DNA of 64,000 nt. Origin: an uncultured virus (IMG/VR IMGVR_UViG_2643221865_000004). Taxonomy: Duplodnaviria; Heunggongvirae; Uroviricota; Caudoviricetes. The stretch lies in the IMG/VR virus record IMGVR_UViG_2643221865_000004. One strand, written 5' to 3'. Below are positions 378 through 61,814 of this stretch, in pieces; the first letter of the stretch is position 1, and every line of letters begins with the position of its first letter. The notes below the pieces were generated by a model. The model was given only the letters and a program-made list of their open reading frames with translations, had not been told where the DNA came from and did no database searches. A program made the translations under genes and the position numbers.

Positions 378-422
378 AGGTTCTCCATTCAGGATGGAGC
401 CATGTGGCAGCTCGCCTGACGG

Positions 423-1001
423 TCAGCTGTGAGCTGTGCAGAACCTGTCGATGTCGGCCACATCCGCGGCGGTGATCCCGACAGCTTCATCGGTGGCGAT
501 GAGCAGGCCGGGGATGCCGGCGGCCACATCGTCGATGTTGAACGCCCGGTTGATGAGCCGTTCGCCGGCGATCTCGACGTCGTCCGCCCAGATGAACGGC
601 TGGCCTGTGTGGGCGACCCGGGCTCGGAGGGCGTTCAGTTTCCAGCGGGCGTCGCGGAAGCCGCGGACCCGCGGTGGGATCTTGGCCAGCACGAAACCGC
701 CGGCGAGCTTCCCTCCCAGGGCCTGGTCGACGAGAGCGCGGGCGTTCGGCCCCCAGGTGGTCAGCCACCCCAGCTCGATCTGGTGGGTGCGGATGGTGTC
801 GTCGAGCGCTGCGATGATGTCGGCGTCGAAGTCGATGACGTACTTCTGCCCGTGCGCGGTGCGGACCAGCACCCGGGTCAGACGAGCGGACGGAGCCTTC
901 TTCTTGGTGTTCTCCTCGAAGACGTTGATGACACCGTCGACGTCCAGCGCGAGAAGCGGTCGGGAGCCGTCGAACAGGTCGATCGGGAGGAGGGTTTCCA
1001 T
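423..1001 (-). CDS. HAD-superfamily hydrolase (Swiss-army-knife RNA-repair HAD-like)
   Basis: LLALDVDGVIN (DxD), WLTTWG, FIWADD; start moved to ATG 1001 (METLL), 18 nt after class B motif. Confidence 0.8.
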   Translation of the reverse strand: METLLPIDLFDGSRPLLALDVDGVINVFEENTKKKAPSARLTRVLVRTAHGQKYVIDFDADIIAALDDTIRTHQIELGWLTTWGPNARALVDQALGGKLAGGFVLAKIPPRVRGFRDARWKLNALRARVAHTGQPFIWADDVEIAGERLINRAFNIDDVAAGIPGLLIATDEAVGITAADVADIDRFCTAHS

Positions 1002-1055
1002 GCCACCATCATGTGCGGACGCGCAATGTCTTGCCTGCACGCTAGTCTCAGCGGC

Positions 1056-1979
1056 ATGTCGCTGACTCAGCCTGATTCCTCGCGAGAGATCCCCCACAAA
1101 CCGGAGTACGACGACGCGGTCGCCGAGGCAGCCCAGCTGGGTGCTGAGATCGGTGCGGACTACCCGGGTCTGTGGGAGCCGGACGAAGTGGTGGCGGCGA
1201 ACCTCCGCGCCCTGGTGGAGACGCAGGTGAAGGCGCTCGCCCCGAAGCCCGCTGTGCAGAAAGGGTTGCACCTACTGAACGCGTTCCTGTTCGTGGTGGG
1301 GTTCGTCATCCTCATCTACGCGGCGGGGAACGGCAGCTCGAACGAGTACAGCCCGAACTACGGCCGGGACATGTCCGGCTGGTGGGTGGCGTACTGGATC
1401 GTCACTGCACTGTGGATTGGCGGTCTCTGGTTGACGATGTCGCGGTGGTCAAAGCGGGGTCAGGCTCACACCGGCCTGGTGATCCGGATCCAACCCGCCA
1501 TGTTGGATGCTGCGATTGGTGCGTTCTCCGAACGGAAAGTCGACGCTCTCAACTACACGGCGGACGACGCTGCGACCGAGTTCACGCCGGGCGGGCCGAT
1601 GCCGGCCCCGCAACCGTACGGCGTCTCCCATCAGGGTGCGGAGCAGCTGACGGCAGGGTGGATGCGGTTCTTCGGTGAAGCTGATGCTGTTGTGACACAG
1701 TTCACCGGCGATGGTGGGATCGACGCCCAGTCACAGCATTACATCGCGCAGACGAAGAACTACGCCGGGACTGTCGGTGTGGAGTCCGTCCGGGAGCTCG
1801 CCGGGGTGGTGGCCGCCGACGGCAGGAAAGGGCTGTTCTTCACCTCCGGCACCTACGCGGCCGGTGCGATCCAGTTCGCTGACCGGGTCGGGATCCTGCT
1901 GTTCAGGTACGACGCCGCGGCCGGGTCTCTGGAAGCGGCGAACGCTGCAGCGGAAGCGGTGTTCGTCCGTGGTCTCTAA
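1056..1979 (+). CDS. membrane-anchored Mrr-like (Mrr_cat) restriction endonuclease-fold protein
   Basis: Two TM segments, then DGGIDA..IAQTKNY and GLFFTSGTYAAGAIQFA (Mrr-type D..QxK); TAGTCT 7 nt before ATG 1056. Confidence 0.75.
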   Translation: MSLTQPDSSREIPHKPEYDDAVAEAAQLGAEIGADYPGLWEPDEVVAANLRALVETQVKALAPKPAVQKGLHLLNAFLFVVGFVILIYAAGNGSSNEYSPNYGRDMSGWWVAYWIVTALWIGGLWLTMSRWSKRGQAHTGLVIRIQPAMLDAAIGAFSERKVDALNYTADDAATEFTPGGPMPAPQPYGVSHQGAEQLTAGWMRFFGEADAVVTQFTGDGGIDAQSQHYIAQTKNYAGTVGVESVRELAGVVAADGRKGLFFTSGTYAAGAIQFADRVGILLFRYDAAAGSLEAANAAAEAVFVRGL

Positions 1980-2291
1980 TCAGAGGACGCCGTCGTACCG
2001 TTCGGCGCTGAGTTCCGTCAGCCAGTAGTGCGTGCATCTGCCGTCGTGGGCGGCCGGGGTGATGGGTTCCAGCTGGTAGCGGACGACGTAGATCTTGTTG
2101 TCGCGGTTGGCGTACTTGTGCAGCACTCCGTCGATGATCAGCGGGGACATGGTCGTCCCCGTCCCGGCGAACCGGAACCATTCGCCGGTCGCGGAGACGT
2201 AGCCGAACCATCGGCCGAAGTTCCATTTGTCAGCCCAAGGGTCGACTGACGGCTTGGCGGCTGTTGATGCCTGGCTGGTGCTCACTGGCAT
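1980..2291 (-). CDS. hypothetical protein
   Basis: ORF with SD (GAAAGG); class B motif at 2327-2336. Confidence 0.65.
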   Translation of the reverse strand: MPVSTSQASTAAKPSVDPWADKWNFGRWFGYVSATGEWFRFAGTGTTMSPLIIDGVLHKYANRDNKIYVVRYQLEPITPAAHDGRCTHYWLTELSAERYDGVL

Positions 2292-2358
2292 GCCTTTCGG
2301 GGACGGTTGTCTGCTCTCGGCTCCTTCATGTGCGGCGCCGGCCTGTCTTGCCGAAGCT

Positions 2359-3144
2359 CTAGGCGAGCATCTCCACGTCGAGGGTGTCGAGGGTGAGCAA
2401 CGCGATGTTCCCTTTCTGGGTGTCGCAGCCGAGGGAGTAGACGCGGCGGCCGTCTCCGTAGTCGCGTCCGTCCGGGACGTGCATGTGACCGTGGGCGAGG
2501 ATGCTCGGTCGGAGCGCTTCCCAGACTTGGCTGACCTGGGCGCGGGAATGTGCTGAGTAGCGGAGTTCGTCAGAGTGGAACCCGATCGGGTTCGTCGCCA
2601 GCAGCTGCTGCACCTTCAACGTGCCGTCGTTCACGGTCTCGTGGGTCAGCATGACATCGACCGGGCCGCCGGTCATCGCTGCAGCGACCTGCGTGTCGGT
2701 GATCTGCTCTTCCAACCACCAGTCACGGTTGACGGTCCGGTCCATGTAGTCGACGGAGTTCGCCCCGCCGAGGGACAGGAACCGGGTGGCGCCGAGGCGG
2801 AAGAAGTACGGGCGGGGAAGAACATGGATGTGGTCGGTCAGTTCGATGACCTGGCCGGGACGGCTCGCCCACAGCTTCTCCATGCGTGCATGGTCTTCAT
2901 GGTTGCCGAGGGTGACGAGGATCCGTTCGATGCCGGACTTCTTGCACCAGTAGTCGACAGACTTCAGGAACCCTTTCCCGCGCCGTTCCGGCCAGATGCC
3001 GAAGTCGCCGAGGTGCAGGATCGTCTTCACGTCAGGGGCGGCACGGTGCAGTTTCGGGAGGATCGTCTGCACCCAGGTGACGTTGCCGTGCCAGTCGCCT
3101 GCAAGCGCAACCCGGTGCTCGTCGGTTGAAGTGAGATCGTCCAT
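2359..3144 (-). CDS. calcineurin-like metallophosphoesterase
   Basis: GDWHG, LGDFG, GNHED, THE, HGHMH motifs; start ATG 3144 is 18 nt after class B motif. Confidence 0.88.
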   Translation of the reverse strand: MDDLTSTDEHRVALAGDWHGNVTWVQTILPKLHRAAPDVKTILHLGDFGIWPERRGKGFLKSVDYWCKKSGIERILVTLGNHEDHARMEKLWASRPGQVIELTDHIHVLPRPYFFRLGATRFLSLGGANSVDYMDRTVNRDWWLEEQITDTQVAAAMTGGPVDVMLTHETVNDGTLKVQQLLATNPIGFHSDELRYSAHSRAQVSQVWEALRPSILAHGHMHVPDGRDYGDGRRVYSLGCDTQKGNIALLTLDTLDVEMLA

Positions 3145-3173
3145 GCCGCCATCATGTGCGGCACCGCCCGGTT

Positions 3174-3451: not shown

Positions 3452-3607
3452 TCAGATGAACTCGGACAACACCACGAGGAACAGCCCGACAAAGGAGATC
3501 ACTGTGGGTATCACTGTCGACACTGAGTTCTGAGCCTCGATGATCGTGGATCCCACGACGAGCAGGATCATCCCGGCCAAGACCACAGCCAACGCCGGCA
3601 ACGACAT
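3452..3607 (-). CDS. small two-TM membrane protein
   Basis: MSLPALAVVLAGMILLVVG...VISFVGLFLVVLSEFI; class B motif at 3695-3704. Confidence 0.45.
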   Translation of the reverse strand: MSLPALAVVLAGMILLVVGSTIIEAQNSVSTVIPTVISFVGLFLVVLSEFI

Positions 3608-3906
3608 GCTGTCGAACTTGTCGGAGATGAAACTGGTGTGGATGGCGAGGTGATGCACGGGGGTGGGTCTCCAGGGTCGGTGATGTGCCACCGCCATGTG
3701 CGGAAATGAGGAACCCTGCGCGACACCGCCCGCTCTGGGGTAAGGCCCTTCGCACCTATTGACGGACGCCTCTGCACGTTTCGGTGCCCCTCCGCACATG
3801 CAGGTTCCATGCAACCGAGATCAGCCACCGAGGCTCCACCCCTGCCTGCTGTCGGCCCCGCGTTTAGGTTCGAGCCGACATCTATCAAGATCGAGGCCGT
3901 GAGCGC

Positions 3907-4637: not shown

Positions 4638-6128
4638 TTAGCGCACCGCGTCGTATGCCTCGACTGCATTGTGGGACCTGAGCTCAGCCTCGACGGCCTT
4701 CTCTTCCGTTTCGGCGAGCCGCTGCTCCGCTCGTTCGAGTGCGGTGGTGTTGCGTTCGATGGCGCTGAGGGCGTTCGCCTGCTCCAGCTTGGCGAGGTTG
4801 TCTGGGGTCATGACGGTGGATGCGCCGCCCTGCTTGTACGCCCAGTCGGAGAGCTTCTGACGTGCGCTGGGTGTGATCTGCTCGTAGTCGCTGGGGTGCA
4901 CGTTCCCCTGCGCGTCGAAGTCGACGCTGAGACGCCAGAAGTTGGGGTTCTTGCTGTAGTCCTTGCCGTTGATGACGAACGGTGAGTCCTTGAAGTCCAG
5001 GGTGAACTTCTCTGTCCCGCCGAACCTCAGGCTGGCGCGCCCGAACGGAGTGTCGACCGTTGCTGGAAGGGTCGATCGGATTTCTGACGAGTCCTTCTCG
5101 AAGGTGTCGGCCCCGTAGGTCTGGCGGTAGCTTGTGGCGGCTTCCGCGGCCGCCTGCTTCTTCATGTCCAGGTCAGCCGCGGCTTCATCTCGTCGCTTCC
5201 GGGTGTGCCGGACGGAGCTGAGGGCGGATGAGAGACGCTTGGCGGTGAGGTTCTCCTCGGTCATGATCGCTGCGGCCCCACCTTGGGTGAACGCCCAGTC
5301 GGCGAGCTTCTTCTCAGCGGCGGGGGTGATGTTGCCGTAGCTGCTGCCCTCGGCCCGTCCGGACTTGACGAAGTCGACGCTGAGCGGGATGTAGGAGTCC
5401 GCTTCGCTGTAGTCCTTCCCGTTGACGACGAACGGGGAGCCCTTCTCGAACTTCAGTTGGAACATCGAGTCGTTGAAGTCGTCGATCCTGAGCTTGGCGC
5501 GTCCGAATGGGGTGTCGACGTGGGTGGGGAGCTCTTTGAGCGGGTCGGTCCTGTTCGCGAGGATCTCGTTGATCCGATCTTCGGCGGTGACTGCCGGCGC
5601 CGCCGGGGCGGTGAGGTCGACCTGACGGCCCTGCAGGATCGTTACTGACTCGCCGTTGCGGCCCTCCGCGGTGAGTTCGTAGTGTCCGGTGCCTTCGTTG
5701 TCCCAGTCGTCTCCGTCGACGGAGTCGAACAGGGCGACTGGCTGGTCGTCGGAGTTCGCGCGGGTGTCGATCACATCGAACCCTGCTTGGCCGGCGAGGG
5801 TGGCGATGTAGTCGTTGGAGTCATCGGCGTTCTTGATCTCGTCGGGGATGACACCGTTCGCGAACGGGTACTTCTGGAGCAGCTCGGTGCGGAGCTCATC
5901 CTTGCTGAGGACGGCACCGTCGTACTCGTACTGGGTGACCTTCTTCAGCGCCTCCTGGTACGCGGCGACGCGCTCGGGATCCCCGGCGATCTGAACCGGC
6001 ACACCGCCGATGAAGATCTGCCTGCCGAACTGGCCGCCGAGGTTCTTCCCTCCGGCGCCGATGGAGCCTGCCTGCTGGCGTGCGGATTCACGGTTCAACG
6101 CTGTGAGCGTGTTGGGTGTTGGTGACAT
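4638..6128 (-). CDS. hypothetical protein with internal domain duplication and N-terminal GGQF tag
   Basis: LPxxVDTPFGRAxLR...PFVxNGKDYS...ITPxAxxKLxDWA occurs twice; class A motif 18 nt upstream. Confidence 0.85.
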   Translation of the reverse strand: MSPTPNTLTALNRESARQQAGSIGAGGKNLGGQFGRQIFIGGVPVQIAGDPERVAAYQEALKKVTQYEYDGAVLSKDELRTELLQKYPFANGVIPDEIKNADDSNDYIATLAGQAGFDVIDTRANSDDQPVALFDSVDGDDWDNEGTGHYELTAEGRNGESVTILQGRQVDLTAPAAPAVTAEDRINEILANRTDPLKELPTHVDTPFGRAKLRIDDFNDSMFQLKFEKGSPFVVNGKDYSEADSYIPLSVDFVKSGRAEGSSYGNITPAAEKKLADWAFTQGGAAAIMTEENLTAKRLSSALSSVRHTRKRRDEAAADLDMKKQAAAEAATSYRQTYGADTFEKDSSEIRSTLPATVDTPFGRASLRFGGTEKFTLDFKDSPFVINGKDYSKNPNFWRLSVDFDAQGNVHPSDYEQITPSARQKLSDWAYKQGGASTVMTPDNLAKLEQANALSAIERNTTALERAEQRLAETEEKAVEAELRSHNAVEAYDAVR

Positions 6129-6188
6129 GCCGCGTATGTGTGTGGCTGCAGGGCATCAGGACCACCTAGTTCCGCGCATGTAGGTGGC

Positions 6189-11037: not shown

Positions 11038-11598
11038 TCAGAGGTCTTCGAGCCGAGGATCGTCGAGCTCGAAGTCGAGGAGCCCCCGCTGCGAGGCGTC
11101 CGCGCACAGTTCCGTGTCGGACGCCTTCACGCAGAGAAGGGCGAGGAGGCCATGTGCGTCTTCGTCCGTGTACGTTGTCAAAGCGCCGGCGCCGGGATGC
11201 GCCTTCAGCGCTGCCACCCACTCGTCAGCAGTGGAGCATCCGGTGGCTGTTCTGAGAAGCTCGCGATCGTTGTTGAGCTCGGCGACGTCCGCCGCATCAG
11301 CCATTGACGTGTCGCACGACGGCGAGATCACCGGGTCGTCGAACGACTGAACGAGGAAAACGCCGATGCCTACCATCGCGGCGAGGCCGAGCATGATCAC
11401 GTTGACGCCGAAGCAGCCGATCCGACCCTTCGTTGCGGTCACCGCAACCTCGGGTGTGGCTGCGGGACCCGAAACCGTCGAGTCCGCCACGACAGTTGGC
11501 CTGGCGTAAGCCGTCCATTCGTTCCCGTCCCACCACTGTTCCACGGTTGGATCGGAAGGATGCGGGAACCAGCCAGCGGGAGGGAGCGAATCAGACAT
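11038..11598 (-). CDS. DUF2510-domain membrane protein
   Basis: PAGWFPHPSDPTVEQWWDGNEWT, TM, Cys-containing ectodomain. Confidence 0.78.
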   Translation of the reverse strand: MSDSLPPAGWFPHPSDPTVEQWWDGNEWTAYARPTVVADSTVSGPAATPEVAVTATKGRIGCFGVNVIMLGLAAMVGIGVFLVQSFDDPVISPSCDTSMADAADVAELNNDRELLRTATGCSTADEWVAALKAHPGAGALTTYTDEDAHGLLALLCVKASDTELCADASQRGLLDFELDDPRLEDL

Positions 11599-12757: not shown

Positions 12758-12827
12758 GGGTGTGGTTCCGTTTCTCGGAGGGGTAATTGTCTAAGCCAAC
12801 ATGCGCGGACATGCGGAGAAATGCAGA

Positions 12828-15121: not shown

Positions 15122-15208
15122 GGTCGATCTCCTTCTGTTCCGGGCGGGAATGCGGCCGCCCTATTTCGGAGACGTAGGTGTGTGGCTGGCTCTGGCGCGG
15201 ACCGGTTC

Positions 15209-15952: not shown

Positions 15953-15982
15953 GCAATCTAGGTGTGTGGCTCGGGGGATGCA

Positions 15983-18239: not shown

Positions 18240-18280
18240 GTGATGCCTTTCCTTTGTGGTCAGAGACGTAGGTGTGTGGC

Positions 18281-19642: not shown

Positions 19643-19802
19643 GAAGACGTAGGTGTGTGGCCGGCCTGGGTGAATCGCGCGCGGACCGGTAAAAGCAAGC
19701 CCTTACCCGCTCATCTTCACCGACAGAGAGCAGCCTGAAAGCTTCGATGTCGGGAGGTGCTGGGATGCTCACCATCCCCACCCACGACACGAAGGGCCAT
19801 CC

Positions 19803-21449: not shown

Positions 21450-21570
21450 GGATTGGTGCTCCTGGGTGGGGTGTGCCGGGCGGGTGGACGGCGACATGAA
21501 GACATGTGGCAAGTCCTCAGATGCCGAGGTTTGCCACATGTCTCCGCGGTGAACCCGAAAGGCATTTCCC

Positions 21571-24125: not shown

Positions 24126-24148
24126 GCGATGTAGGTGTGTGGCGCCAA

Positions 24149-24823: not shown

Positions 24824-24924
24824 AGCGGTTGTGCTCCTTCTACGGTTTCGGATCCGTATGTGTGCGGGCGGATTCCGGCTGTGTCGGTCCGGGCGTTTCG
24901 CCGCGCCGGGGAGACATGTGGCGA

Positions 24925-27059: not shown

Positions 27060-27083
27060 ACGCCGTAGGTGTGTGGCGTCGCC

Positions 27084-27941: not shown

Positions 27942-27976
27942 GCCCTGAAGGCATGTGGCGGAAGCTTCTCGCCCTG

Positions 27977-28825: not shown

Positions 28826-28969
28826 ATCGGGAAGGCATGTGGCAGAAATGCTGGCATCCTTGGCCGCCGGTGTATCCAGCAGGCCGAGGAATGACAGGTT
28901 GAGCGGACCGCCGCGAAGGGCGTTGACGCCAGCCTCGCGACGGTCCGAGTTGATGATGGTCACGGGCGT

Positions 28970-29866: not shown

Positions 29867-29940
29867 GAGGTTCTCCTTCTTCTCGTCACCTTCATGTGCG
29901 GCATGCGGAGAAAATGGTGAACAGCGACTCGGCGGACGAA

Positions 29941-34109: not shown

Positions 34110-34479
34110 AGGTCACCTCATTTTCTACTCAGGCGGAAGATCTTCACTGAGTAGGTATGTGGCGAATGCTGGGGTCAGGTACTGGCGGCCGGCCAGCGAC
34201 AAACCATGCGTTTCCGCGCATGCAGGTGTCGAAGAAAGATAGACGAACTGGGTCCAGAAATTGCTCGTGAAAAGCGAACAAAAGCGAACAGGCCCGCACA
34301 TGTTTGTAATGAAGAAGGAAGACACATGCGAAACGAAACGGAGCAGTCGATGATCGAGAGAAATCACCCCGTATCGCGCATGTTGTTCACGTCAGGGAGA
34401 CGCGCAACTCCCTCAAATACCACCTGTGGCTTCCACCCCGGCTCTCATGCCGGGAGCCGGGATGCCGCCACGGGGAAGC

Positions 34480-35610
34480 TCACTCAGGAATGTCGCAACC
34501 GTAGACGTTGACCGTCTGGCCGTCGATTGAGTAGTCGTACGCGTAGTCGACGTTGATGATCGACGTGCCACCGGCACCGGGGTTGTGGCTGTACATGAGG
34601 AACGACGGGAAGCCGTCGCAGCCGGGACGGTAGTCACCGTTCGCCTGAACGTAGACGTTCTCGTCGAGGACGGGAGGAGCCGGGTTGCTGGGAGCGCCAC
34701 CATCTGAGCTGGGGGCACCGCCGGACGACGGAGCACCACCAGACGAGGGCGCACCGGAGCCGCTGTCGCCCGAGCCGCCGTCGCTGTACTCAGAGTCGTC
34801 AGAGTAACCGCCCTCGTCGGCCTGAGCTGCTGCATCCGCTGCAGCCTGTGCTTCTGCTGCTGCCTTCGCGGCAGCTGCGGCGGCAGCGGCGGCTACCGCG
34901 GTGGCCTGGGACTTGTTGACGGCGTCGTCGGCGGTCTTGACCGCGGCGAGGGCCTTGGCGACATCACCGTCGCCGGAGATGGCCGCGTTCAGTACCTTCA
35001 CGGCCTTCGCGACAGCGTCCTTCGAGGCCTTGTCTGCCAGCGTCTGCTTCTTGGTGACCTGGTCGGCGACCGGGCCGGCTGACTTCGCAGCTGCGAGGTA
35101 TGCGGCGGTGACGGCCTTCTTCGCCTTGGCGATCGCCTTGATGTCGTCGCCGGCGGCTGCCTTCACGAGTGCGTCGCGGGCTGTTTCGAATGCTGCAGCC
35201 TGCTTCGGGTCGATGTAGCCCTTGTAGGTGGCGCCGAACTTCGCGAACGTGTCGTTGTAGCTGGTGGCGTCCTTCTGGGCGGCGGTGAGCTCGGCGGCTG
35301 CCTTCAGCTCGGCGGCCTGCTCGGCTGCGAGCTGCTCGGCGACGACCTGCTTGTTGTGCTCGTCGACGGCGGTGACGGTGACCGGGATGGCGACGGCGGA
35401 GATGACGATGACGGCGGCTGCGACAGCGGCGATGACCTTGGTCGGCTTCGGCAGCTGGTTCCAGAACGCCGAGGCCTTGCCGGTGAGTGTGGCGGGAGCG
35501 GGAGGTGCGAATGTGGGCACCTCGACCTGCTCGGTCGATGCGGCGGTGGGCTCAGCCCAGGCGGCCGCCTCGGTGGGGGCGTCGGTGGTCGGCGTGGTGT
35601 TCTCGGTCAT
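34480..35610 (-). CDS. membrane-anchored Ala-rich coiled-coil protein
   Basis: TM, coiled coil, GAPSS repeats, small Cys-containing C-terminal domain; AAGGAG SD. Confidence 0.82.
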   Translation of the reverse strand: MTENTTPTTDAPTEAAAWAEPTAASTEQVEVPTFAPPAPATLTGKASAFWNQLPKPTKVIAAVAAAVIVISAVAIPVTVTAVDEHNKQVVAEQLAAEQAAELKAAAELTAAQKDATSYNDTFAKFGATYKGYIDPKQAAAFETARDALVKAAAGDDIKAIAKAKKAVTAAYLAAAKSAGPVADQVTKKQTLADKASKDAVAKAVKVLNAAISGDGDVAKALAAVKTADDAVNKSQATAVAAAAAAAAAKAAAEAQAAADAAAQADEGGYSDDSEYSDGGSGDSGSGAPSSGGAPSSGGAPSSDGGAPSNPAPPVLDENVYVQANGDYRPGCDGFPSFLMYSHNPGAGGTSIINVDYAYDYSIDGQTVNVYGCDIPE

Positions 35611-37251: not shown

Positions 37252-37323
37252 GCCACGGTCATGTGCGGACAGACGCAGAAACGGCCGCCGGTGTGCACCG
37301 ACGGCCGCCTCATCTGCCGTGTG

Positions 37324-41322: not shown

Positions 41323-41476
41323 TATGTGTGCCTTTCAGGTCGTTGCGGCTTTCCAGCCGGGGCTGACCGCAAGACATGTGGCGAATCGCCGGTGTCCTTG
41401 TAGGTCAACCGGAGGCATAAGTGTGCGGCCGGTTCAGGAGTCCCGAACCGGCCGCTGGTGGTGCTTGTGACGCTGC

Positions 41477-42694: not shown

Positions 42695-42762
42695 GAACCG
42701 TAGGTGTGCGGCACATTTCGGGTCCGATTCGGTGACGGCGTGTCGCCAGTGCTGACGCGGAA

Positions 42763-43473: not shown

Positions 43474-43498
43474 ACGGGAAAGGCATGTGGCGGAACGG

Positions 43499-44487: not shown

Positions 44488-44506
44488 GAGGCTTACATGC
44501 GCGGTT

Positions 44507-45064: not shown

Positions 45065-45082
45065 GAGTTCTAGGTGTGTGGC

Positions 45083-46890: not shown

Positions 46891-46920
46891 GACGTTCTAG
46901 GTGTGTGGCGCAGCCCCAGG

Positions 46921-48381: not shown

Positions 48382-48404
48382 GGGTTCTACGTGTGTGGGG
48401 CGTG

Positions 48405-49880: not shown

Positions 49881-49898
49881 GCACCCATAAGTGTGTGG

Positions 49899-50279
49899 CT
49901 ACGCGGCCTCAGCGGGAGCTTCATCCGTGGCGGCAGCCTTCGTCCGCGGCGCAGGAGCTCCAGCCTTCACAGCCTTGCCGACACAGCCCAGAGTGAGCGT
50001 GCATTTCGTCGGGACGGTGCCGGTGCCGATGAACGCCACCTTGTCGCACTCCTTGCACCACGTCAGGGTCACCGGGGCGCCCTTCTGGACGCTCAGGAAC
50101 GACACCACCGACTGCTCATACTCACGAACCAACGCCAGCTGCTCATCAGTCAGGCGCGGCTCAACACCGGTGCGGACCAGCTCCTCCCACGTCTCGCAAC
50201 GGTTCTTCGCGATCGCGACCAACGCGATCTCCGCAGCACGGAATGCCGGGTGGACAGGCTTCTCAGCAACCTCAGTCAT
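49899..50279 (-). CDS. small Cys-rich (Zn-ribbon) protein
   Basis: WCKEC..KC..GC; GAGG SD; ATGA overlap with upstream gene. Confidence 0.7.
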   Translation of the reverse strand: MTEVAEKPVHPAFRAAEIALVAIAKNRCETWEELVRTGVEPRLTDEQLALVREYEQSVVSFLSVQKGAPVTLTWCKECDKVAFIGTGTVPTKCTLTLGCVGKAVKAGAPAPRTKAAATDEAPAEAA

Positions 50280-50524: not shown

Positions 50525-50544
50525 GGCACCAACATGTGCGGATC

Positions 50545-53364: not shown

Positions 53365-53401
53365 ATGGTTCTATGCGCGACGGAAGTGCCCGGCTGTCCT
53401 G

Positions 53402-54499: not shown

Positions 54500-54530
54500 G
54501 CTCTGTAGGTGTGTGGCTGTGAGACGACGA

Positions 54531-54556: not shown

Positions 54557-54574
54557 GTCAGTCGTGCATACGGG

Positions 54575-55450
54575 TCAGTCAGCTTCGAAGAAGAACTCGA
54601 ACACCGGCGGCTTCTCGATGCCGGAGAAGCGGCGCGATCCGGCCGGGGCGACCTTGTCGGACTTCCGTTCGCGGGTGCCTTCGCTGACGTAGGCGCGCAG
54701 CCAGCCGAGGTACTCGTCGACGTTGTCGGCCTTCAGGACCGGCGGGAACGTGACGATGAGGGATGTCGGCGAGTCCGACTTCTCGAACACCACGTCGCCG
54801 TCGACGGCGTGGAGTTCAGCCGCCCAGCCGTGGTTGGCGAGGTTGAGGAAGTGCTCCCGCTCGTCATCGGTGAGTGGTCGGCTGGTCTGGAACCGGCCGC
54901 GCTGCGGGAACATGGGGGCGCGGCTGCCGTCGTGGTAGCGCTCGAAGACGGTGCCGTCGTCCTCCACGAGGAAGTCGAACAGTTCGCCGGCCTGGACGCG
55001 GGGGTCGTTGATCGACGCGGTGGTTGCACTGTCGGTGTCGAGGATGTTGACGAGTGCGATGCGGTCGACGGCTTCCTTCAGGCTGGAGGCGAGGGAAGTG
55101 TTACCGGTCTCCTGCAGGATCTCAGCGGATGCGGCGGCTACGGCGTGGAGGGTGCGGAAGTCTGCGTCGTCCTTCACCCCGCCGAGCTCGTGAGCGACCT
55201 CGCGGTGGACGAACTGGAGGGTGAGGTCGTCGATGACGTGCACGTCGGTGAGTCGTTCCACCATCAGCTCACGGCCTCCCTCGGGGAGGTCGTTGCCGGG
55301 CTTGGCGAGCCACGCGTCGATGGTCTGCTCGAACGTCTGCGCGTCGAGGCCGCTTTCGGCGGCGCTGAGCTCGCGGCTCTCCCAGAATCCGGGGTTGATG
55401 AGGCTGTTCACCTGACGGGGCTGGTTGGTGGTTGCTGGTGCGGTGTTCAT
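54575..55450 (-). CDS. hypothetical protein (paralog of 45988..46890) with QPR tag
   Basis: DDGTVF..RFQTSRPL; class A motif 19 nt upstream. Confidence 0.8.
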   Translation of the reverse strand: MNTAPATTNQPRQVNSLINPGFWESRELSAAESGLDAQTFEQTIDAWLAKPGNDLPEGGRELMVERLTDVHVIDDLTLQFVHREVAHELGGVKDDADFRTLHAVAAASAEILQETGNTSLASSLKEAVDRIALVNILDTDSATTASINDPRVQAGELFDFLVEDDGTVFERYHDGSRAPMFPQRGRFQTSRPLTDDEREHFLNLANHGWAAELHAVDGDVVFEKSDSPTSLIVTFPPVLKADNVDEYLGWLRAYVSEGTRERKSDKVAPAGSRRFSGIEKPPVFEFFFEAD

Positions 55451-55493
55451 GGTTTCCTAAGTGTGCGGCCGGGGTACGGCTGCGTTCCTTTCT

Positions 55494-56234
55494 CTAGTTG
55501 AGGACGGTGGGTTCGTTGAATGCGACGATCCGCATGGTTTCTGGGGAGACGGTGATCTCCCAGACGCCGGTGCGGATGACGGTGAGGGGTTTGCCGTTGG
55601 AGAGGTAGTGGGCTGTGTAGGGGGCGACGACGGTGAGGGAGAATCCGGAGTCGTACTGACCGTTCACACCGGTCAGCGGCTCCCGCCCCCAGTCGATGCC
55701 GGTCAGGTCGACACCTTCGTTGTCCCACGGGTTGGAGATCCGCGGTTCGGAGGTGAGGTAGCTGGAGCCATCGGCGAAGTACGGGGCGAGACGTGCCGCC
55801 CGAGCCGCTGCGCTCTCGCCGGCGACGATCGTGGAGTACTCCTTCACCGCAGCGGTGCCGAGTGCTTTCAAGGCGGGGACGTCGGCTGAGTCGGACCCGC
55901 CGCCGGTCCCGTCTTCGAACCCGTCGGCGCCGGTCGCGGACTCACCGTCGTGGGTGTGCTCACCGTCGGTGCCGGGATCTTCGCCGTCTTCGCTGTCCAG
56001 GGGCCCTTGCTCGTCCTCACCGTCGCTGGGCTCCGGCACTTCGGTCGGCTTGTCTGTGTTGCCGCCGGTGCTGCTGCCGGGGATCTCCACAGGTGCGGAG
56101 GTGCCGCCGGACGGAGCCTTCGTCTCCTCCGGTTCGGCGGGTTTGGTGGGCCCGGAGAGCACATTGAATAGGATGACCGCGATCGCAGCCACCACACCCA
56201 GCACTCCGAGGATGATCTTCGTTCGTTCGTTCAT
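55494..56234 (-). CDS. membrane-anchored protein, probable transfer accessory
   Basis: N-terminal TM, acidic linker, globular C-terminal domain; directly downstream of cell-wall hydrolase. Confidence 0.7.
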   Translation of the reverse strand: MNERTKIILGVLGVVAAIAVILFNVLSGPTKPAEPEETKAPSGGTSAPVEIPGSSTGGNTDKPTEVPEPSDGEDEQGPLDSEDGEDPGTDGEHTHDGESATGADGFEDGTGGGSDSADVPALKALGTAAVKEYSTIVAGESAAARAARLAPYFADGSSYLTSEPRISNPWDNEGVDLTGIDWGREPLTGVNGQYDSGFSLTVVAPYTAHYLSNGKPLTVIRTGVWEITVSPETMRIVAFNEPTVLN

Positions 56235-56244
56235 GGTGGCTTCC

Positions 56245-58604
<2,360 letters not shown>

Positions 58605-58611
<7 letters not shown>

Positions 58612-59069
58612 GCCCGATCAGCCCGCCATTCGACCTTCCCGGACACACCGGCCGGGAAGTAGCGGGCGCGGCGTCGTTCCAGACGCCAGATGTAGGTGCG
58701 GGTGGGGACGGTGGCGGACTTCGCCAGGTTGTGGGTCGGGCAGAGCATCTGCAGGTTCGACATGGCTGTCGCCCCGCCTCGTGAGTGCGGGTAGATGTGG
58801 TCGCCGTGAGTGCCGGGCTTGGAGCAGCGGAACCACATCGGGTCCTTGTGCTCGCACCGGCCTCGCCCTGCCCGGCGGGCGCCTTCAGCCTTCTGGGCGG
58901 GTGTGAAAAGTCGTGCTCCGTCGGGGCGGTGGCCGCGACGGTTGAACGCCTTCTTCGCCTTCGACCACCCGCGGAACAACGCGATCAGGAGCACGAACCC
59001 CAGCGCGGCTGCGAACATCGGCTGGTCGCCGAGGAACTGGAATGCAGCGTCAACGTTCGGTGTGTCCAT
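58605..59069 (-). CDS. HNH endonuclease with N-terminal TM
   Basis: RCE..C..HGDHIYPHSRGGAT..NLQMLCPTHNLAKS; class C motif 18 nt upstream. Confidence 0.88.
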
Positions 59070-59090
59070 GCCTTCGAGGCATGTGGCGAG

Positions 59091-60083
59091 TTACTCGCAG
59101 TCGCCAGAGAATTGGCTTTGGATGTCGGGTGAGATTCCGGAGTAGGTGGCTGTGTACACGCCGGCGCCGCCCTTCAGCACCTTCGTCAATGAGCCGCTAC
59201 CGGTGATGGTTCCTCCGCCGGTAGAGCCGGCTGGTCCCTTGACAGTCAGGGTCAGTGTTCCCGATCCGCCAAGACGGAAGCTGACGGTGTTCCCGCTGGA
59301 GTAGCACTCGGTGGTGAACGTGGACGACGCCGATGTTGGAACTCCGGGCTTCACGACTGGGTTGCCGCCACCACCGCCGCCACCGCCGGAACTGGGAGTC
59401 CCCGGGTCGGCAGGTGCCGGCTGCACGGGGGCCGGCTGCACAGGCGCTGGCTGCTCAGGCGCGGGCTGCTGAGGTGCGGGCTGCTGCGGTGTTTGCTCCT
59501 CGGCCTCGTTCTTGGCTGCTTCCTCCGCCGCCTTCTCCGCTGCGGCCTTGGCGTCGGCAGCCTTCTTGTCGGCGGCGGCCTTCTTGTCAGCCGCCGCTTT
59601 CTTCACCGCGTCGGTCTTCTCGTTCAGCCCGTCGGTGGCGTCGGCGAGCGATGACGTGCAGGAAAGGATCTCGGCCGGGCTCGATGACTTCTTCACATAG
59701 TCGGTGCACCGGTCGAACCACATCTGCGGTGTCTTCAGGTCCGACGCTACGACTTTGGCTTTCGTCGCGTCGGAGAGCGCTTTCGCGGACTTCTTCAGTT
59801 GCCCTTCCGCTGCTTTCTTCGCTGCGTCCAGGTCGTCTTTGTTGACGGTCGGTTTGGCGGTCTTCGAGGTGCCTGCGACATCGCCGGCGGTCTCTTTGAC
59901 CCAACCGGAGACGGTGCCGTACAGGGGTCCCCACTGGGTTCCCACTCCCGCGGTCAGCGAGCCGACGATGACGGCGGCGAGGAGGATCCGCGCTGTCTTC
60001 GTGCGGGCGTAGTACTTGGCGGTGTCACGTTTCCGGCGCAGCAGGACGACGGGTGCGTCATCGGCGTGGTCGGTGCGTTTCAC
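59091..60083 (-). CDS. membrane-anchored/secreted protein with Q/P-rich linker
   Basis: TM, helical domain, QPAP repeats, beta-rich C-terminal domain; class C motif 18 nt upstream. Confidence 0.8.
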   Translation of the reverse strand: MKRTDHADDAPVVLLRRKRDTAKYYARTKTARILLAAVIVGSLTAGVGTQWGPLYGTVSGWVKETAGDVAGTSKTAKPTVNKDDLDAAKKAAEGQLKKSAKALSDATKAKVVASDLKTPQMWFDRCTDYVKKSSSPAEILSCTSSLADATDGLNEKTDAVKKAAADKKAAADKKAADAKAAAEKAAEEAAKNEAEEQTPQQPAPQQPAPEQPAPVQPAPVQPAPADPGTPSSGGGGGGGGNPVVKPGVPTSASSTFTTECYSSGNTVSFRLGGSGTLTLTVKGPAGSTGGGTITGSGSLTKVLKGGAGVYTATYSGISPDIQSQFSGDCE

Positions 60084-60117
60084 GCACCGTTGACATGTGG
60101 CGACAGGAGGGTACGAG

Positions 60118-60152: not shown

Positions 60153-60194
60153 GACTTGCTGTTCAGATCACAGGAGCGAGCTCCTGCTCACCTG

Positions 60195-60743
60195 CTAGAA
60201 GTCGTAGTCGTCGTCATCCACGGCGACGGCCGCGGGGGCGGCAGCGACGGGGACGGCGACGGGGGCTGCCACGGGGGCAGCGACGGCCGGAGCTGCGACA
60301 GCAGCTGCGGGTGCAGCCACGGCGGCTGCGGCGGGGGCGCCGACGGGAGCGGCGGCGACGGCGGTCGTCGGCGTGTTCTTCGCACGGCGAGTGAACGTCG
60401 TGGTGCCGAAGCGGAGCGTGGGGCCGACCTCGTCGACCTCGAGCTCGATCACGGTGCGCTTCTCGCCCTCCTTCGTCTCGTACGAGCGCTGCTTGAGCTC
60501 GCCGATGGCGAAGACGTTGTCGCCCTTGTGGGCCGACGCGGCGAAGTTCTCCGCGTACTCACGCCACAGCGAAGCACGGATGAACAGCGGCTCGCCGTCC
60601 TTGAACTGGCCCGACTCACGGTCGAAGACGCGGGGCGTCGACGCGATCGTGAAGTTGGCGACTGCCACACCGCTCTGGGTGTAGCGGAGCTCCGGGTCAG
60701 CGGTCAGGTTGCCGACGATGGGGAAGCCGTACTGGTTCGTCAT
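60195..60743 (-). CDS. ssb: single-stranded DNA-binding protein
   Basis: [30 protein letters not shown]; acidic tail DDDDYDF. Confidence 0.95.
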
Positions 60744-60862
60744 TTCTGGGTATCTTCTTTCGTTTCGTATCAGTGAATGGCGGCGTGTGTGCTGCCACAT
60801 CCTTCATGTGCGGATTCAGCACGTTTTGCTGAAACCGGTTCTTCCGGCGGGTGCCGGCAGGT

Positions 60863-61141
60863 TTATAGGTGTGCGGTCTCGTGAACGAGGGTCCGTCGGA
60901 TGGTGGAGAAGACCTTCTCCTCGCTGGCGCCGGTTTCGTTCTGCACCAGCTGAATCAGGAGACGGCTGATGTTGGAGAGCGCGTGGACGCGACGCTCCAA
61001 CGTGAGGCCGGCGGATGCGTAACCGGCGGCGGTTGCGTCGTCGTGGCTGAGTGCCTCCAGGGCGGCGAGCATCTGGAGTGCGTCGTCGGCCGGGTTCAGC
61101 CACTGGGTGGTGTCGGTGTTGTCGGAGACGATGGTGCTCAT
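60863..61141 (-). CDS. small helical hypothetical protein (92 aa)
   Basis: MSTIVSD...; ATGA overlap with Orn-like gene. Confidence 0.6.
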   Translation of the reverse strand: MSTIVSDNTDTTQWLNPADDALQMLAALEALSHDDATAAGYASAGLTLERRVHALSNISRLLIQLVQNETGASEEKVFSTIRRTLVHETAHL

Positions 61142-61788
61142 ACGGCTACTTCCTGGTGTGCGACACGCTGTGCGTGGGCGCGGTACATGTCCGCTTGGAT
61201 TCGGGCTTCGGCGAGGTGGAGGCGAATGTCGACGATGGCGCGGTGGTTCTTCCCGTCGTTCACGCCGGTCAGGTCGGTGCCGGTTGCGCGGCGGTATGCC
61301 TTCCGGACGAGGCCGACGTCGTTGGTCTCTCGGTCGTCCAGCAGGGAACGCAGCGCCGGGGTCTTGTGGAGCAGCATCTTCGTGTCGTACTGCCAGACAC
61401 CGGACCCGGACAGGACCAGGGTTCCGTTGTGCGGGTAGCTCTTGATCAGGTCGATGATCTGACGCTCGACGAGCTCGACGGTGGGGAGCTCCTGTCGGAG
61501 GATCGGGTCGGAGATGATCGCCATCAGCCCGTTGCCGGTGTGCATCTCGCGCACCGGATCGTTCGCGGCGGCGCGGTTGACGGCGGCTTCGGAGGCGAAC
61601 ACCACAGCTTCGTACTCGAACAGGGTGTCGAGGTTGTTGTTGGTCCCGATGACACCGAACTCGATGATGTCGTCCAGGACCGGGTCGAGCCCTGTCGCTT
61701 CCAGGTCGACCCAGAGATGGGTGAGGGTGTTGTCGGTCATGGTGGTGTGGTCTGCCGGGACGGCAGCCTCCATTCGGATGTAGGGCAT
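61138..61788 (-). CDS. orn: oligoribonuclease-like DEDDh exonuclease
   Basis: LWVDLEATGLD..IIE..MHTGNGL..HRAIVDI; class B motif at 61804. Confidence 0.8.
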   Translation of the reverse strand: MPYIRMEAAVPADHTTMTDNTLTHLWVDLEATGLDPVLDDIIEFGVIGTNNNLDTLFEYEAVVFASEAAVNRAAANDPVREMHTGNGLMAIISDPILRQELPTVELVERQIIDLIKSYPHNGTLVLSGSGVWQYDTKMLLHKTPALRSLLDDRETNDVGLVRKAYRRATGTDLTGVNDGKNHRAIVDIRLHLAEARIQADMYRAHAQRVAHQEVAV

Positions 61789-61814
61789 GGGGTCTGATTC
61801 CTTCATGTGCGGAC

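What the first reader, a model, noticed from the sequence alone, without database searches (positions are those of the whole stretch)
401..61813. Three motif variants sort genes into functional regulons (cargo / nucleic-acid enzymes / transfer-envelope)
Seen: class C precedes the M23 peptidase, pilin-like protein, VirB2/3/6-like operon, signal peptidase I, HNH-hydrolase operon, the 59091 secreted protein and both PP2C genes. The adhesin has an A/C hybrid (GCCACATACCTA). Class B precedes HAD, metallophosphoesterase, ParB-like, SprT, RlaP-like, SSB and Orn. Class A precedes the peptide-tagged hypotheticals and ArdC. There are exceptions (e.g. class B before 34480..35610, class C before 30..377). 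Inference: a phage-like staged transcription cascade on a conjugative element.
Basis: partly seen in the sequence, partly recalled or inferred. Interest (0 to 1): 0.85.

Follow-up and report, generated by a model that had tools for sequence, protein, structure and literature searches.

The report
Function-sorted private promoter classes, megaplasmid
A 701-kb actinobacterial megaplasmid heads its genes with short promoter-like words of its own, and which word a gene carries tracks what its protein does, a sorting that related giant plasmids keep although their words differ.

Summary
A fourth, D = GACAGCCGG-N10-CGCGCATAGA, was missed. All lie almost only on the window's own 701-kb, lower-GC contig.

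In each class the word ends where a -10 hexamer would end, 6-7 nt before an ATG/GTG. Otherwise it precedes a leader that usually carries a Shine-Dalgarno-like word.

Of 824 genes I called on the contig, 357 have a site in front.
- **Hydrophobic (membrane-like) segment:** class C 67/118, B 41/159, A 7/68. The difference survives collapsing paralogues.
- **Nucleic-acid enzymes:** most frequent behind B (24/159).
- **N-terminal G-x-G-Q-F-like tag:** found only behind A.

A Curtobacterium megaplasmid with about 50% identical DnaE shows the same three-way split with different words. Orthologues keep their class in 22 of 28 pairs.

The words are most likely promoters read by element-specific factors. 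The contig has four sigma-family genes, but no reader could be assigned. A timed, phage-like cascade and conjugative transfer remain untested.

The parts
15175..15186 (-). class A site GCCACACACCTA, 53-nt leader before gene 14609-15121
15959..15970 (-). class A site, 6 nt before the ATG of 15209-15952
18269..18280 (-). class A site, 29-nt leader before 17544-18239 (tag score 8.5)
19650..19661 (-). class A site, 7 nt before the ATG of 18962-19642
24132..24143 (-). class A site, 6 nt before the ATG of 23277-24125
27066..27077 (-). class A site, 6 nt before the ATG of 25983-27059
34152..34163 (-). hybrid word GCCACATACCTA (T at position 7), 42-nt leader before the 1351-aa surface protein 29985-34040
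41418..41429 (-). class A variant GCCGCACACTTA, 36 nt upstream of the class C site at 41371-41382
42701..42712 (-). class A site GCCGCACACCTA, 6 nt before the ATG of 41477-42694
45071..45082 (-). class A site, 6 nt before the ATG of 44507-45064 (tag score 10.9)
46898..46909 (-). class A site, 7 nt before the ATG of 45988-46890
49888..49899 (-). class A site GCCACACACTTA, 7 nt before the ATG of 48405-49880
54506..54517 (-). class A site, 6 nt before the ATG of the ArdC-like gene 53402-54499 (tag score 17.0)
55458..55469 (-). class A site GCCGCACACTTA, 7 nt before the ATG of 54575-55450
6135..6146 (-). class A variant GCCACACACATA, 6 nt before the ATG at 6128 of ORF 4638-6128 (tag score 14.7); missed by my strict pattern
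397..408 (-). class C site GCCACATGGCTC, 19 nt before gene 30-377
21533..21544 (+). class C site before 21571-23259 (2 hydrophobic segments); divergent partner of the site at 21499-21510
21499..21510 (-). class C site GCCACATGTCTT pointing leftward; its gene is not settled by my gene calls
24911..24922 (-). class C site, 87-nt leader before 24149-24823
27948..27959 (-). class C site, 6 nt before the GTG of the PP2C_2 gene 27084-27941
28832..28843 (-). class C site, 6 nt before the GTG of 27977-28825, a paralogue of the PP2C gene
41371..41382 (-). class C site, 48-nt leader before the membrane-protein operon 40987-41322 / 40453-40983 / 37324-40440
43480..43491 (-). class C site, 6 nt before the GTG of signal peptidase I (Peptidase_S26) 42763-43473
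59076..59087 (-). class C site, 6 nt before the ATG of the HNH gene 58605-59069, which overlaps the M23 peptidase gene 56245-58611
60090..60101 (-). class C variant GCCACATGTCAA, 6 nt before the start of 59091-60083 (hydrophobic N-terminus)
2323..2334 (-). class B site CGCACATGAAGG before 1980-2285
3149..3160 (-). class B site; its CATGAT hexamer lies 6 nt before the ATG of the metallophosphoesterase gene 2359-3144
3691..3702 (-). class B site before 3452-3658
6173..6184 (+). class B site (CGCGCATGTAGG), leaderless, before 6189-8936
11147..11158 (-). class B-like match CGCACATGGCCT; it lies inside my gene call 11038-11544 and was paired by my script with 10607-10927; the pairing is uncertain
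12796..12807 (-). class B site before 11735-12757
29889..29900 (-). class B site, 22-nt leader before the SprT-like gene 28970-29866
37256..37267 (-). class B site, leaderless, before 36931-37251, followed by the RlaP gene 36021-36881
44492..44503 (-). class B site, leaderless, before 44323-44487, followed by the GmrSD_C gene 43499-44323
50529..50540 (-). class B site, leaderless, before 50276-50524
60801..60812 (-). class B site directly before the SSB gene 60195-60800
61800..61811 (-). class B site before the RNase_T (Orn-like) gene 61138-61788
53368..53379 (-). class D site CGCGCATAGAAC with GGACAGCCGGG upstream, 3 nt before the ATG of the SNF2 helicase gene 50545-53364

Best explanation
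The words are the -10 regions of promoters private to a 701-kb megaplasmid. Each word ends 6-7 nt before the transcription start. In about half of the sites that start would be the A or G of the start codon, giving a leaderless mRNA. In the rest, a leader with a ribosome-binding site follows.

The words fall into at least four classes, and I propose that different specificity factors on the host core polymerase read them. Candidates are the element's sigma-family proteins: one ordinary ECF type, two very divergent ECF-like paralogues and one flagellar type. Factors not yet recognisable are also possible. Each class would then be a separately controllable regulon.
- **A:** soluble proteins with a shared N-terminal tag, including ArdC.
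- **B, and probably D:** DNA/RNA enzymes and general genes.
- **C:** membrane, secreted and surface proteins.

**Shown**
- The classes exist and are confined to the element.
- Their spacing to start codons is fixed.
- They correlate with protein properties.
- Class membership is conserved in a distant relative.

**Inferred**
- The words are promoters.
- Different factors read different classes.
- Which factor reads which class.
For: **Confinement to the element (C5 against the other ten contigs)**
- A: 63 against 1.
- C: 104 against 13.
- B, strict pattern: 154 against 20.
- The class A 12-mer occurs 35 times in this genome and at most once in each of 300 other genomes of the family. Of those, 285 have none.

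**Geometry**
- A start codon follows 6 or 7 nt after the A word in 47 of 70 sites.
- It follows 6 nt after the C word in 42 of 125 sites.
- It follows 6 nt after the CATGNN hexamer of B in 42 of 173 sites.
- It follows 3-4 nt after the 12-mer of D in 10 of 12 sites.
- Sites with a 15-55-nt leader mostly carry a Shine-Dalgarno-like 4-mer before the start: A 14/15, B 64/81, C 37/54.
- B and D also have conserved upstream boxes: aGAACC for B, and TGACAGCCGG 18 nt before the hexamer for D.
- No consensus sigma-70 promoter was found in 40001-60000.

**Sorting**
- Hydrophobic segment: C 67/118, B 41/159, A 7/68. C against B, p = 2.5e-7.
- After collapsing paralogues: C 48/94, B 41/154, A 6/62 families.
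- Pfam nucleic-acid enzymes: B 24/159, C 7/118, A 2/68.
- Envelope or transfer proteins: C 19/118, B 6/159.
- Tag score above 8: A 20/67, B 0/142, C 0/114.
- One base tracks function. A words with T at position 7 head hydrophobic proteins in 6/10 cases, against 1/58 with C at that position.
- The classes are finely interleaved: 209 runs among 357 sited genes, against 235 +/- 8.6 in shuffles.

**Conservation in plasmid pS16 (DnaE about 50% identical)**
- Its words are CCGCGCATAG[AG], GCCGCATC[CT] and CGCGCACA[TG].
- Hydrophobic segment: 28/129, 30/54 and 5/60 respectively.
- Tag: 1/121, 0/47 and 25/60 respectively.
- Of the 28 orthologue pairs sited in both elements (151 reciprocal best hits in all), 22 keep the matching class. 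Permutation gives 10.5 on average and at most 19 in 5000 trials.

**Candidate readers**
- Four sigma-family genes lie on C5.
- A fold model of the 220-aa one has mean pLDDT 64.9. All 15 of its top PDB matches are sigma factors (14 of the ECF type), and it matches the sigma-E domain bound to -10 DNA.
Against: - No transcript data: no RNA run was listed, so no start site is shown.
- The hexamers do not fit the actinobacterial TANNNT rule, and class C has G where the near-invariant A(-11) should be.
- No reader is assigned. The two divergent sigma-like paralogues and the ECF gene have no detectable counterpart in pS16, although pS16 keeps all three classes.
- pS16's only other region-4 hit reads as a LuxR-type regulator.
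- The flagellar-type sigma probably reads a classical sigma-28-like promoter instead, CTAA-N16-GCCGATAG, before a basal-body operon.
- A single factor with graded affinities could explain part of the pattern.
- I assigned the function categories by hand.
- No Pfam family, or only a DUF, was found for 112/159 B genes, 79/118 C genes and 62/68 A genes.
- Gene calls are my own GC3-based calls, so some starts are wrong.
- The hydrophobicity test is crude.
- No chance control was run for the Shine-Dalgarno count.
Confidence: 0.6

Rival explanations
1. There is one promoter family read by one factor. On this reading the 'classes' are strength or ancestry variants that spread with gene cassettes, and they do not mark separately regulated sets.
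For: - A and C share GCCACA; B and D share CGC[A/G]CAT.
- Hybrid words exist.
- Only two sigma-like or region-4 genes could be detected on pS16, against its three classes.
Against: - The classes are interleaved gene by gene rather than lying in blocks.
- Orthologues keep their class while the words themselves have changed (22/28).
- Protein properties differ sharply between classes in two elements.
- The tag is found only behind class A.
Confidence: 0.15
2. All genes share one basal promoter, and the variable half of the word is an operator for element-encoded repressors or activators, as with the KorA/KorB regulons of IncP plasmids. The sorting would then come from transcription factors rather than sigma factors.
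For: - The C and B words contain short palindromes (ACATGT, GCATGC, CACATGTG).
- The contig encodes nine helicase-associated-domain (HA) proteins and other possible DNA binders.
- Two HA genes sit behind class D sites.
Against: - The words are strictly co-oriented with the gene downstream and end at a fixed distance from the start codon. A symmetric operator does not need that.
- No second, shared -10 element is visible next to the words.
Confidence: 0.15
3. The words act in the RNA (translation signal, processing site or stability tag) or in DNA rearrangement (cassette junction), not in transcription initiation.
For: - The words sit at gene boundaries, often just after the stop codon of the gene upstream.
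- Start-associated sequences of cluster K mycobacteriophages are a precedent for repeated words before start codons (recalled, not checked).
Against: - In 173 of 369 sites only up to 8 nt separate the word from the start codon, and no ribosome-binding site lies between.
- Where a leader exists, its length varies from 15 to 130 nt and it usually carries its own Shine-Dalgarno-like word.
- B and D have a second conserved box at promoter-like spacing.
Confidence: 0.05

Closest known systems
SigN (ZpdN) and its promoters on Bacillus subtilis plasmid pBS32 (PMC6751061; search listing and abstract only)
   Same: A large plasmid carries its own sigma factor, which directs host polymerase to plasmid promoters.
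   Different: - pBS32 has one sigma and one promoter type in a Firmicute, tied to DNA damage.
- Here there are at least four word classes sorted by protein function.
- They are used by some 357 of 824 genes.
- Most are built for leaderless mRNAs.
- The readers are unidentified.
Temporal promoter classes of large phages (T4 early/middle/late; SPO1 gp28, then gp33/34). Recalled, not checked here.
   Same: A mobile genome marks gene sets with distinct non-host promoter words that its own specificity factors read on host core polymerase.
   Different: - Those classes are known to be timed; no timing is shown here.
- The sets here follow protein destination or function rather than a known infection stage.
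- The element replicates as a plasmid (RepA/ParA).
Leaderless promoters of Actinobacteria (PMC4633059, passages read; the TANNNT rule itself is recalled)
   Same: A -10 element is placed so that transcription would start at the A/G of an ATG/GTG, with no Shine-Dalgarno sequence.
   Different: - The hexamers are CACCTA, TG[C/T]CTN, CATGNN and CATAGA instead of TANNNT.
- Conservation runs 6 further bases upstream.
- The words are nearly absent from the host chromosome.
ECF and sigma-28 regulons of bacteria (recalled)
   Same: - An alternative sigma serves a set of envelope proteins, which is what class C looks like.
- The contig has ECF-like and FliA-like genes.
   Different: - Class C has no conserved -35 box.
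- It does not match GGAAC-N16-17-CGT or TAAA-N15-GCCGATAA.
- No sigma could be tied to it.
Earlier notes of this scan on related elements (e1-5753074, e1-5753129, e1-5328026; AI notes)
   Same: Private leaderless promoter words on actinobacterial megaplasmids, and one word reserved for N-terminally tagged proteins.
   Different: - Shown here for a different, 701-kb element.
- An envelope class is added.
- A replicon-wide test is added.
- Class conservation is shown between orthologues of two elements.

Membership tests
Leaderless promoter (a -10 element ending 6-7 nt before an RTG start) | Fixed distance of 6-7 nt from the conserved element to an ATG/GTG that opens the gene, with no Shine-Dalgarno sequence between | tested here: met
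   - Sharp spacing peaks.
- Sites with the start within 8 nt: A 51/70, B 59/165, C 53/122, D 10/12. Start codons are ATG or GTG except for 4 TTG.
Leaderless promoter (a -10 element ending 6-7 nt before an RTG start) | The mapped 5' end of the transcript coincides with the start codon | not testable with these tools
   No RNA run was listed for this DNA.
Housekeeping sigma-A promoter of Actinobacteria (TANNNT -10; recalled consensus) | T at -12, A at -11 and T at -7 of the hexamer | tested here: not met
   - The hexamers at -12..-7 are CACCTA (A), CATGNN (B), TG[C/T]CTN (C) and CATAGA (D).
- The scan for the E. coli-type consensus found 0 sites in 40001-60000.
ECF-sigma promoter (GGAAC -35, about 16-17 nt spacer, CGT -10; recalled consensus) | Both boxes at that spacing | tested here: not met
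   - Class B has aGAACC, but only 10 nt before CGC[A/G]CATG.
- A and C show no conserved -35 box.
Sigma-28 (FliA) promoter (TAAA-N15-GCCGATAA; recalled consensus) | GCCGATAA-like -10 with a TAAA box 15 nt upstream | tested here: not met
   - A and C share only GCC with it.
- A good match, CTAA-N16-GCCGATAG, lies elsewhere, before a flagellar basal-body operon on C5.
Separate regulons read by separate specificity factors | Class membership is a conserved property of a gene, not of its neighbourhood | tested here: met
   - 22 of 28 orthologue pairs keep the matching class in pS16, against 10.5 by permutation.
- The classes are interleaved.
Separate regulons read by separate specificity factors | A factor identified for each class | tested here: inconclusive
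   - Four sigma-family genes lie on C5.
- Three of them have no detectable counterpart in pS16, which keeps the classes.
Phage-like timed transcription cascade | Classes are expressed in sequence, each stage encoding the factor for the next | not testable with these tools
   - The only link seen is a class C site 122 nt before the FliA-like gene.
- The other three sigma-family genes have no A-D site upstream.
Conjugative plasmid | Relaxase, coupling protein and mating-pair apparatus | tested here: inconclusive
   - Found: RepA/ParA, four FtsK-like ATPases, ArdC, M23 and CHAP hydrolases, and two T2SSE/T2SSF pilus-type loci.
- No relaxase family appeared among the Pfam hits.
- PLSDB types the relatives as non-mobilizable.

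The most novel reading that the evidence does not exclude
A whole family of Micrococcales megaplasmids of 375-700 kb runs its own multi-channel transcription system on host core polymerase.
- Promoter words and their still unrecognised reading factors co-evolve, so each plasmid lineage has a private code.
- The channels themselves are ancient and fixed: tagged soluble proteins that travel or act with the DNA, envelope proteins, and DNA/RNA housekeeping.
- One base at -12 (C or T) would be enough to move a gene from the 'tagged cargo' channel to the 'envelope' channel.
Probability: 0.3. Interest if true: 0.85.

Novelty: new variant of a known kind. Interest (0 to 1): 0.75.

Why it matters
Giant actinobacterial plasmids are mostly made of genes with no known function. 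A promoter code that sorts those genes into a few sets gives a first functional handle on hundreds of unknown proteins. It also predicts which proteins are made together.

It would further show that a plasmid, like a large phage, can keep its gene expression apart from the host's while using the host's polymerase. The code shifts between lineages while the gene sets stay the same. That makes it a natural experiment in how promoters and their reading factors evolve together.

The class reserved for N-terminally tagged proteins ties two unexplained features of these plasmids together. It also makes the tag's purpose testable.

My four literature searches on this found no description of such a code. 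This scan has seen related cases in other elements.

Tried and rejected
- **RNA evidence:** no RNA holder was listed for window:44000-50000, so no start site or expression data could be had.
- **Own polymerase:**
  - The Rpb1 catalytic domain (PF00623) matches only the chromosomal gene on contig C6.
  - The T7-type family (PF00940) found nothing, but it also rang in none of the control genomes. That blank says little.
- **Readers in relatives:**
  - tblastn of the four sigma-family proteins against pS16 found only the FliA-like one, at 43% identity.
  - A two-sequence profile of the divergent paralogues gave only weak region-4 matches in pS16 and in plasmid D40.
  - pS16's second region-4 hit reads as a LuxR/GerE-type helix-turn-helix by its sequence. 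That reading rests on my recall of the family.
- **Class C as the FliA regulon:**
  - I considered this because a class C site precedes the FliA-like gene, and my operon-level table put 13 flagellar genes under C.
  - I rejected that table. It carries a class across gaps of up to 597 nt, and the flagellar cluster itself has almost no A-D sites.
  - Only the first-gene counts are used in this report.
- **A fifth class:** the 189 genes with an upstream gap of at least 50 nt and no A-D site show only Shine-Dalgarno-like words as enriched 6-mers.
- **Terminators:** terminator-like hairpins in 40001-60000 number 16, against 12.9 +/- 3.3 in shuffles, which is not informative.
- One call was one base over the size limit and was resent.
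- **pACHL01:**
  - Its envelope-linked word (ACGCATG: 12/24 hydrophobic, against 7/51 and 7/61) and its tag-linked word (GCCGCACA: 15/61, against 3/51) were chosen after I had looked at the table.
  - These results are therefore exploratory only.

Full report
**What the element is**

The window is bases 571971-635970 of contig C5 of a 4.54-Mb genome. C5 is 701,121 bp with 65.2% G+C. Nine of the other ten contigs have 67.9-69.3%; a 6-kb contig has 62.7%.

My GC3-based gene caller finds 824 genes covering 87% of C5. Pfam scans of 823 of these calls gave a family to 230 of them, at E <= 1e-5 (E <= 0.001 for the window).

C5 carries:
- RepA and ParA;
- its own DnaE, gyrase A/B, two NAD-dependent ligases, SSB and ribonucleotide reductase;
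- many nucleases and RNA-repair enzymes;
- a full flagellar cluster;
- a Wadjet system;
- a type I-E Cas set;
- two pilus-type T2SSE/T2SSF loci;
- at least 33 tRNA genes.

Its RepA and DnaE are closest to those of megaplasmids of Curtobacterium and relatives. These are 41-43% and about 50% identical respectively. The DnaE-bearing plasmids measure 375-608 kb and come from Curtobacterium, Pseudarthrobacter, Paenarthrobacter and Arthrobacter. The RepA hits include Frondihabitans and Cnuibacter. C5 is therefore a megaplasmid of that family.

**The words**

- A = GCC[A/G]CACACCTA
- B = CGC[A/G]CATG
- C = GCCACATG[C/T]CTN
- The adhesin's GCCACATACCTA is an A/C hybrid.

K-mer enrichment upstream of genes recovers these words. 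It also reveals a fourth class, D, which has TGACAGCCGG 18 nt before a CATAGA hexamer inside CGCGCATAGA.

All classes are private to C5.

| Class | On C5 | On the other ten contigs |
|---|---|---|
| A | 63 | 1 |
| C | 104 | 13 |
| B (strict pattern) | 154 | 20 |
| D (loose pattern) | 15 | 16, at a five-fold lower density |

The class A 12-mer occurs 35 times in this genome. It occurs at most once in each of 300 other genomes sampled from the same family, and 285 of them have none.

**Geometry**

For every class the distance from the word to the first in-frame start codon of the gene downstream has one sharp peak.
- A: 6 or 7 nt in 47 of 70 sites.
- C: 6 nt in 42 of 125 sites.
- B: 6 nt after the CATGNN hexamer in 42 of 173 sites.
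- D: 3-4 nt after the 12-mer in 10 of 12 sites.

With the start codon as +1, the words fill -18 to -7, where a -10 hexamer and its upstream extension lie. Counting starts within 8 nt as leaderless gives A 51/70, B 59/165, C 53/122 and D 10/12.

Most of the sites with 15-55-nt leaders carry a Shine-Dalgarno-like 4-mer before the start: A 14/15, B 64/81, C 37/54. I ran no chance control for that count.

A fixed distance when no leader exists, and a variable leader with its own ribosome site otherwise, is what a promoter predicts. An RNA signal does not predict it. Leaderless mRNAs starting at an ATG/GTG are common and efficient in Actinobacteria (PMC4633059, passages read).

The hexamers CACCTA, CATGNN, TG[C/T]CTN and CATAGA do not fit the TANNNT rule, which I cite from memory. 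No E. coli-type consensus promoter is found in 40001-60000.

**The window**

One search lists every gene of the window with its site.
- **C** stands before signal peptidase I, the three-gene membrane operon at 37324-41322, and the HNH gene whose operon holds the M23 peptidase.
- **C** also stands before the 59091-60083 protein, the PP2C gene and its paralogue, and 30-377.
- **B** stands before the metallophosphoesterase, SprT, the gene ahead of RlaP, SSB and the RNase_T gene.
- **A** stands before ArdC and a run of proteins without Pfam families.
- The SNF2 helicase has a class D site.

Pfam did not confirm the names 'HAD', 'ParB-like', 'pilin-like' or 'VirB2/3/6-like'.

**Test across the replicon**

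Of the 824 genes, 357 have a site within 130 nt upstream on their own strand: A 68, B 159, C 118, D 12.

I assigned function categories to the Pfam names before mapping the classes.

| Category | A | B | C |
|---|---|---|---|
| Nucleic-acid enzymes | 2/68 | 24/159 | 7/118 |
| Envelope, transfer or flagellar | 3/68 | 6/159 | 19/118 |
| No family or only a DUF | 62/68 | 112/159 | 79/118 |

For nucleic-acid enzymes, B against C gives p = 0.02. For envelope proteins, B against C gives p = 5e-4.

A measure that needs no annotation gives the clearest result. It asks whether a protein has a hydrophobic stretch (Kyte-Doolittle, window 19, mean >= 1.6).

| Class | With a hydrophobic stretch | Share |
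|---|---|---|
| C | 67/118 | 57% |
| B | 41/159 | 26% |
| A | 7/68 | 10% |

C against B gives p = 2.5e-7, and C against A gives p = 1.5e-10. Counting each paralogue family once gives C 48/94, B 41/154 and A 6/62 (p = 1.3e-4 and 4.7e-8). The share is the same for leaderless and leadered C genes (30/52 and 37/66).

The classes are interleaved gene by gene. There are 209 runs among 357 sited genes, against 235 +/- 8.6 in shuffles. So they are not simply blocks of common descent.

**Class A and the tag**

Class A proteins share a loose N-terminal motif, roughly [D/N]-G-x-G-[Q/K/R]-[F/Y] within the first 50 residues. A position matrix scored leave-one-out exceeds 8 bits in 20 of 67 class A proteins. 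It does so in 0 of 142 B, 0 of 114 C and 0 of 11 D proteins.

Of the 11 unsited genes above 10 bits, 7 lie directly downstream of a class A gene. One more, at window 4638-6128, has the variant word GCCACACACATA.

ArdC carries the tag with a score of 17.0.

Earlier notes of this scan describe such tags, and one tag-specific promoter, on related elements. They liken the tagged proteins to solo domains of polyvalent proteins (PMC5512222 seen as listing and abstract only). I treat those notes as leads.

**The hybrid word**

Among class A sites, 10 have T instead of C at position 7, which is -12. Six of these 10 head proteins with hydrophobic segments, against 1 of 58 with C at that position (p = 1.3e-5).

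**Relatives**

I fetched plasmid pS16 of Curtobacterium sp. MCSS17_016 (NZ_CP126255.1, 545,759 bp) whole and analysed it the same way. It has none of the C5 words but shows three analogous sets.

| pS16 word | Spacing to start | Genes | Hydrophobic | Tag above 8 (matrix trained on C5) |
|---|---|---|---|---|
| (T)CCGCGCATAG[A/G] and close variants | 6 nt | 129 | 28/129 | 1/121 |
| GCCGCATC[C/T] | 8-10 nt | 54 | 30/54 | 0/47 |
| CGCGCACA[T/G] | 7 nt | 60 | 5/60 | 25/60 |

The tag is clearer there, for example ...ARxGDGKFGxQH....

Between C5 and pS16 there are 151 reciprocal best hits with median identity 42%. In 28 of them both genes have a site. In 22 of those 28 the classes correspond (A with CGCGCACA, B/D with CATAG, C with GCCGCATC). 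Permutation gives a mean of 10.5 and a maximum of 19 in 5000 trials. ArdC, SSB, an FtsK-like ATPase, a YdjM membrane protein and a glutaredoxin are examples.

Class membership has therefore been kept while the words changed.

Two further relatives were looked at more briefly.
- In pACHL01 of Pseudarthrobacter chlorophenolicus, a word ACGCATG goes with hydrophobic proteins (12/24, against 7/51 and 7/61). GCCGCACA goes with the tag (15/61, against 3/51). I chose these words after seeing the data, so this is only suggestive.
- Plasmid D40 shows yet other variants in the 29 kb I read.

**Who reads the words**

No polymerase catalytic subunit is detectable on C5 (one search is uninformative).

C5 has four sigma-family genes.
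- A FliA-like one at the head of the flagellar cluster.
- A 165-aa ECF sigma.
- Two paralogues of 220 and 258 aa in which Pfam sees only region 4.

A model of the 220-aa protein has moderate confidence (mean pLDDT 64.9). All 15 of its best PDB matches are sigma factors aligned over 160-200 columns, 14 of them of the ECF type. It also matches the sigma-E domain bound to -10 DNA (TM 0.74 on the target). The two paralogues are therefore very divergent ECF-like sigmas.

Three of the four genes have no A-D site upstream and may depend on host promoters. The FliA-like gene has a class C site 122 nt upstream.

I could not tie any factor to a class.
- Only the FliA-like gene has a detectable counterpart in pS16.
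- A classical sigma-28-like promoter before a flagellar operon suggests that this sigma does its usual job.

The readers are either evolving too fast to be matched, as the changing words would lead one to expect, or they are proteins of a kind not yet recognised.

**Verdict**

The reading as function-sorted regulons is well supported. Promoter function is strongly suggested by geometry but is not shown.

The 'staged cascade' and 'conjugative' parts are open. In four literature searches I found no description of such a code. The closest published case I found is the single plasmid sigma SigN of pBS32 (abstract only).

Noticed in passing
G000 contig C5, about 5.9-22.4 kb (loci L001 and L002): An array of at least 33 tRNA genes covering most amino acids lies on the megaplasmid. 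Beside it are RNA-repair genes: RNA ligase, Thg1-like, Ro60/TROVE and a CCA-adding-type enzyme, with RtcB at the other contig end.
   Followed up: partly
G000 contig C5, 102.7-132 kb (loci L006 and L007): A complete flagellar gene cluster with its own FliA-like sigma, CsrA and FliW lies on the plasmid. It carries almost no class A-D sites, and one sigma-28-like promoter (CTAA-N16-GCCGATAG) lies before a basal-body operon.
   Followed up: partly
G000 contig C5, about 534.6-543.6 kb (loci L028 and L029): Type I-E Cas genes are present (Cas3, a Cse1-Cse2 fusion, Cas7, Cas5, Cas6e). No Cas1 or Cas2 appeared among the Pfam hits, and an HA-domain gene lies between cas3 and cse1. I did not look for a CRISPR array.
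   Followed up: no
window 34204-34386, + strand: Three class B-like words (CGCGCATGCAGG, CGCACATGTTTG, CGCGCATGTTGT) lie 80 nt apart on the + strand. They sit in the gap between the adhesin gene and 34480-35610 and point at only a small ORF.
   Followed up: no
window 1006-1017, - strand: A perfect leaderless class B site (CGCACATGATGG, then 4 nt, then ATG) lies inside my + strand gene-1979. It is in frame with the - strand ORF 423-1271. One of the two calls is probably wrong in this stretch.
   Followed up: no
window 30888-32425: The 1351-aa surface protein gene holds four to five tandem repeats of about 354 nt, 66-77% identical (families D1, D7, D8 and D10).
   Followed up: no
G000 contig C5, 559651-559686: Two class A words face each other back to back, 12 nt apart. 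Each lies 6 nt before the ATG of a divergent gene, so this is a fully symmetric divergent promoter pair.
   Followed up: no
G000 contig C5, nine genes (for example 359279-359776 and 425 kb): Nine proteins carry helicase-associated (HA, PF03457) domains without a helicase. Two of them sit behind class D sites, and one has an orthologue in pS16. They are possible DNA-binding regulators.
   Followed up: no
W03 (pACHL01) 378959-379171: A strong sigma region-2 match (E = 3e-25) lies in an open frame of 1016 aa on the Pseudarthrobacter megaplasmid. That is far longer than an ordinary sigma factor.
   Followed up: no
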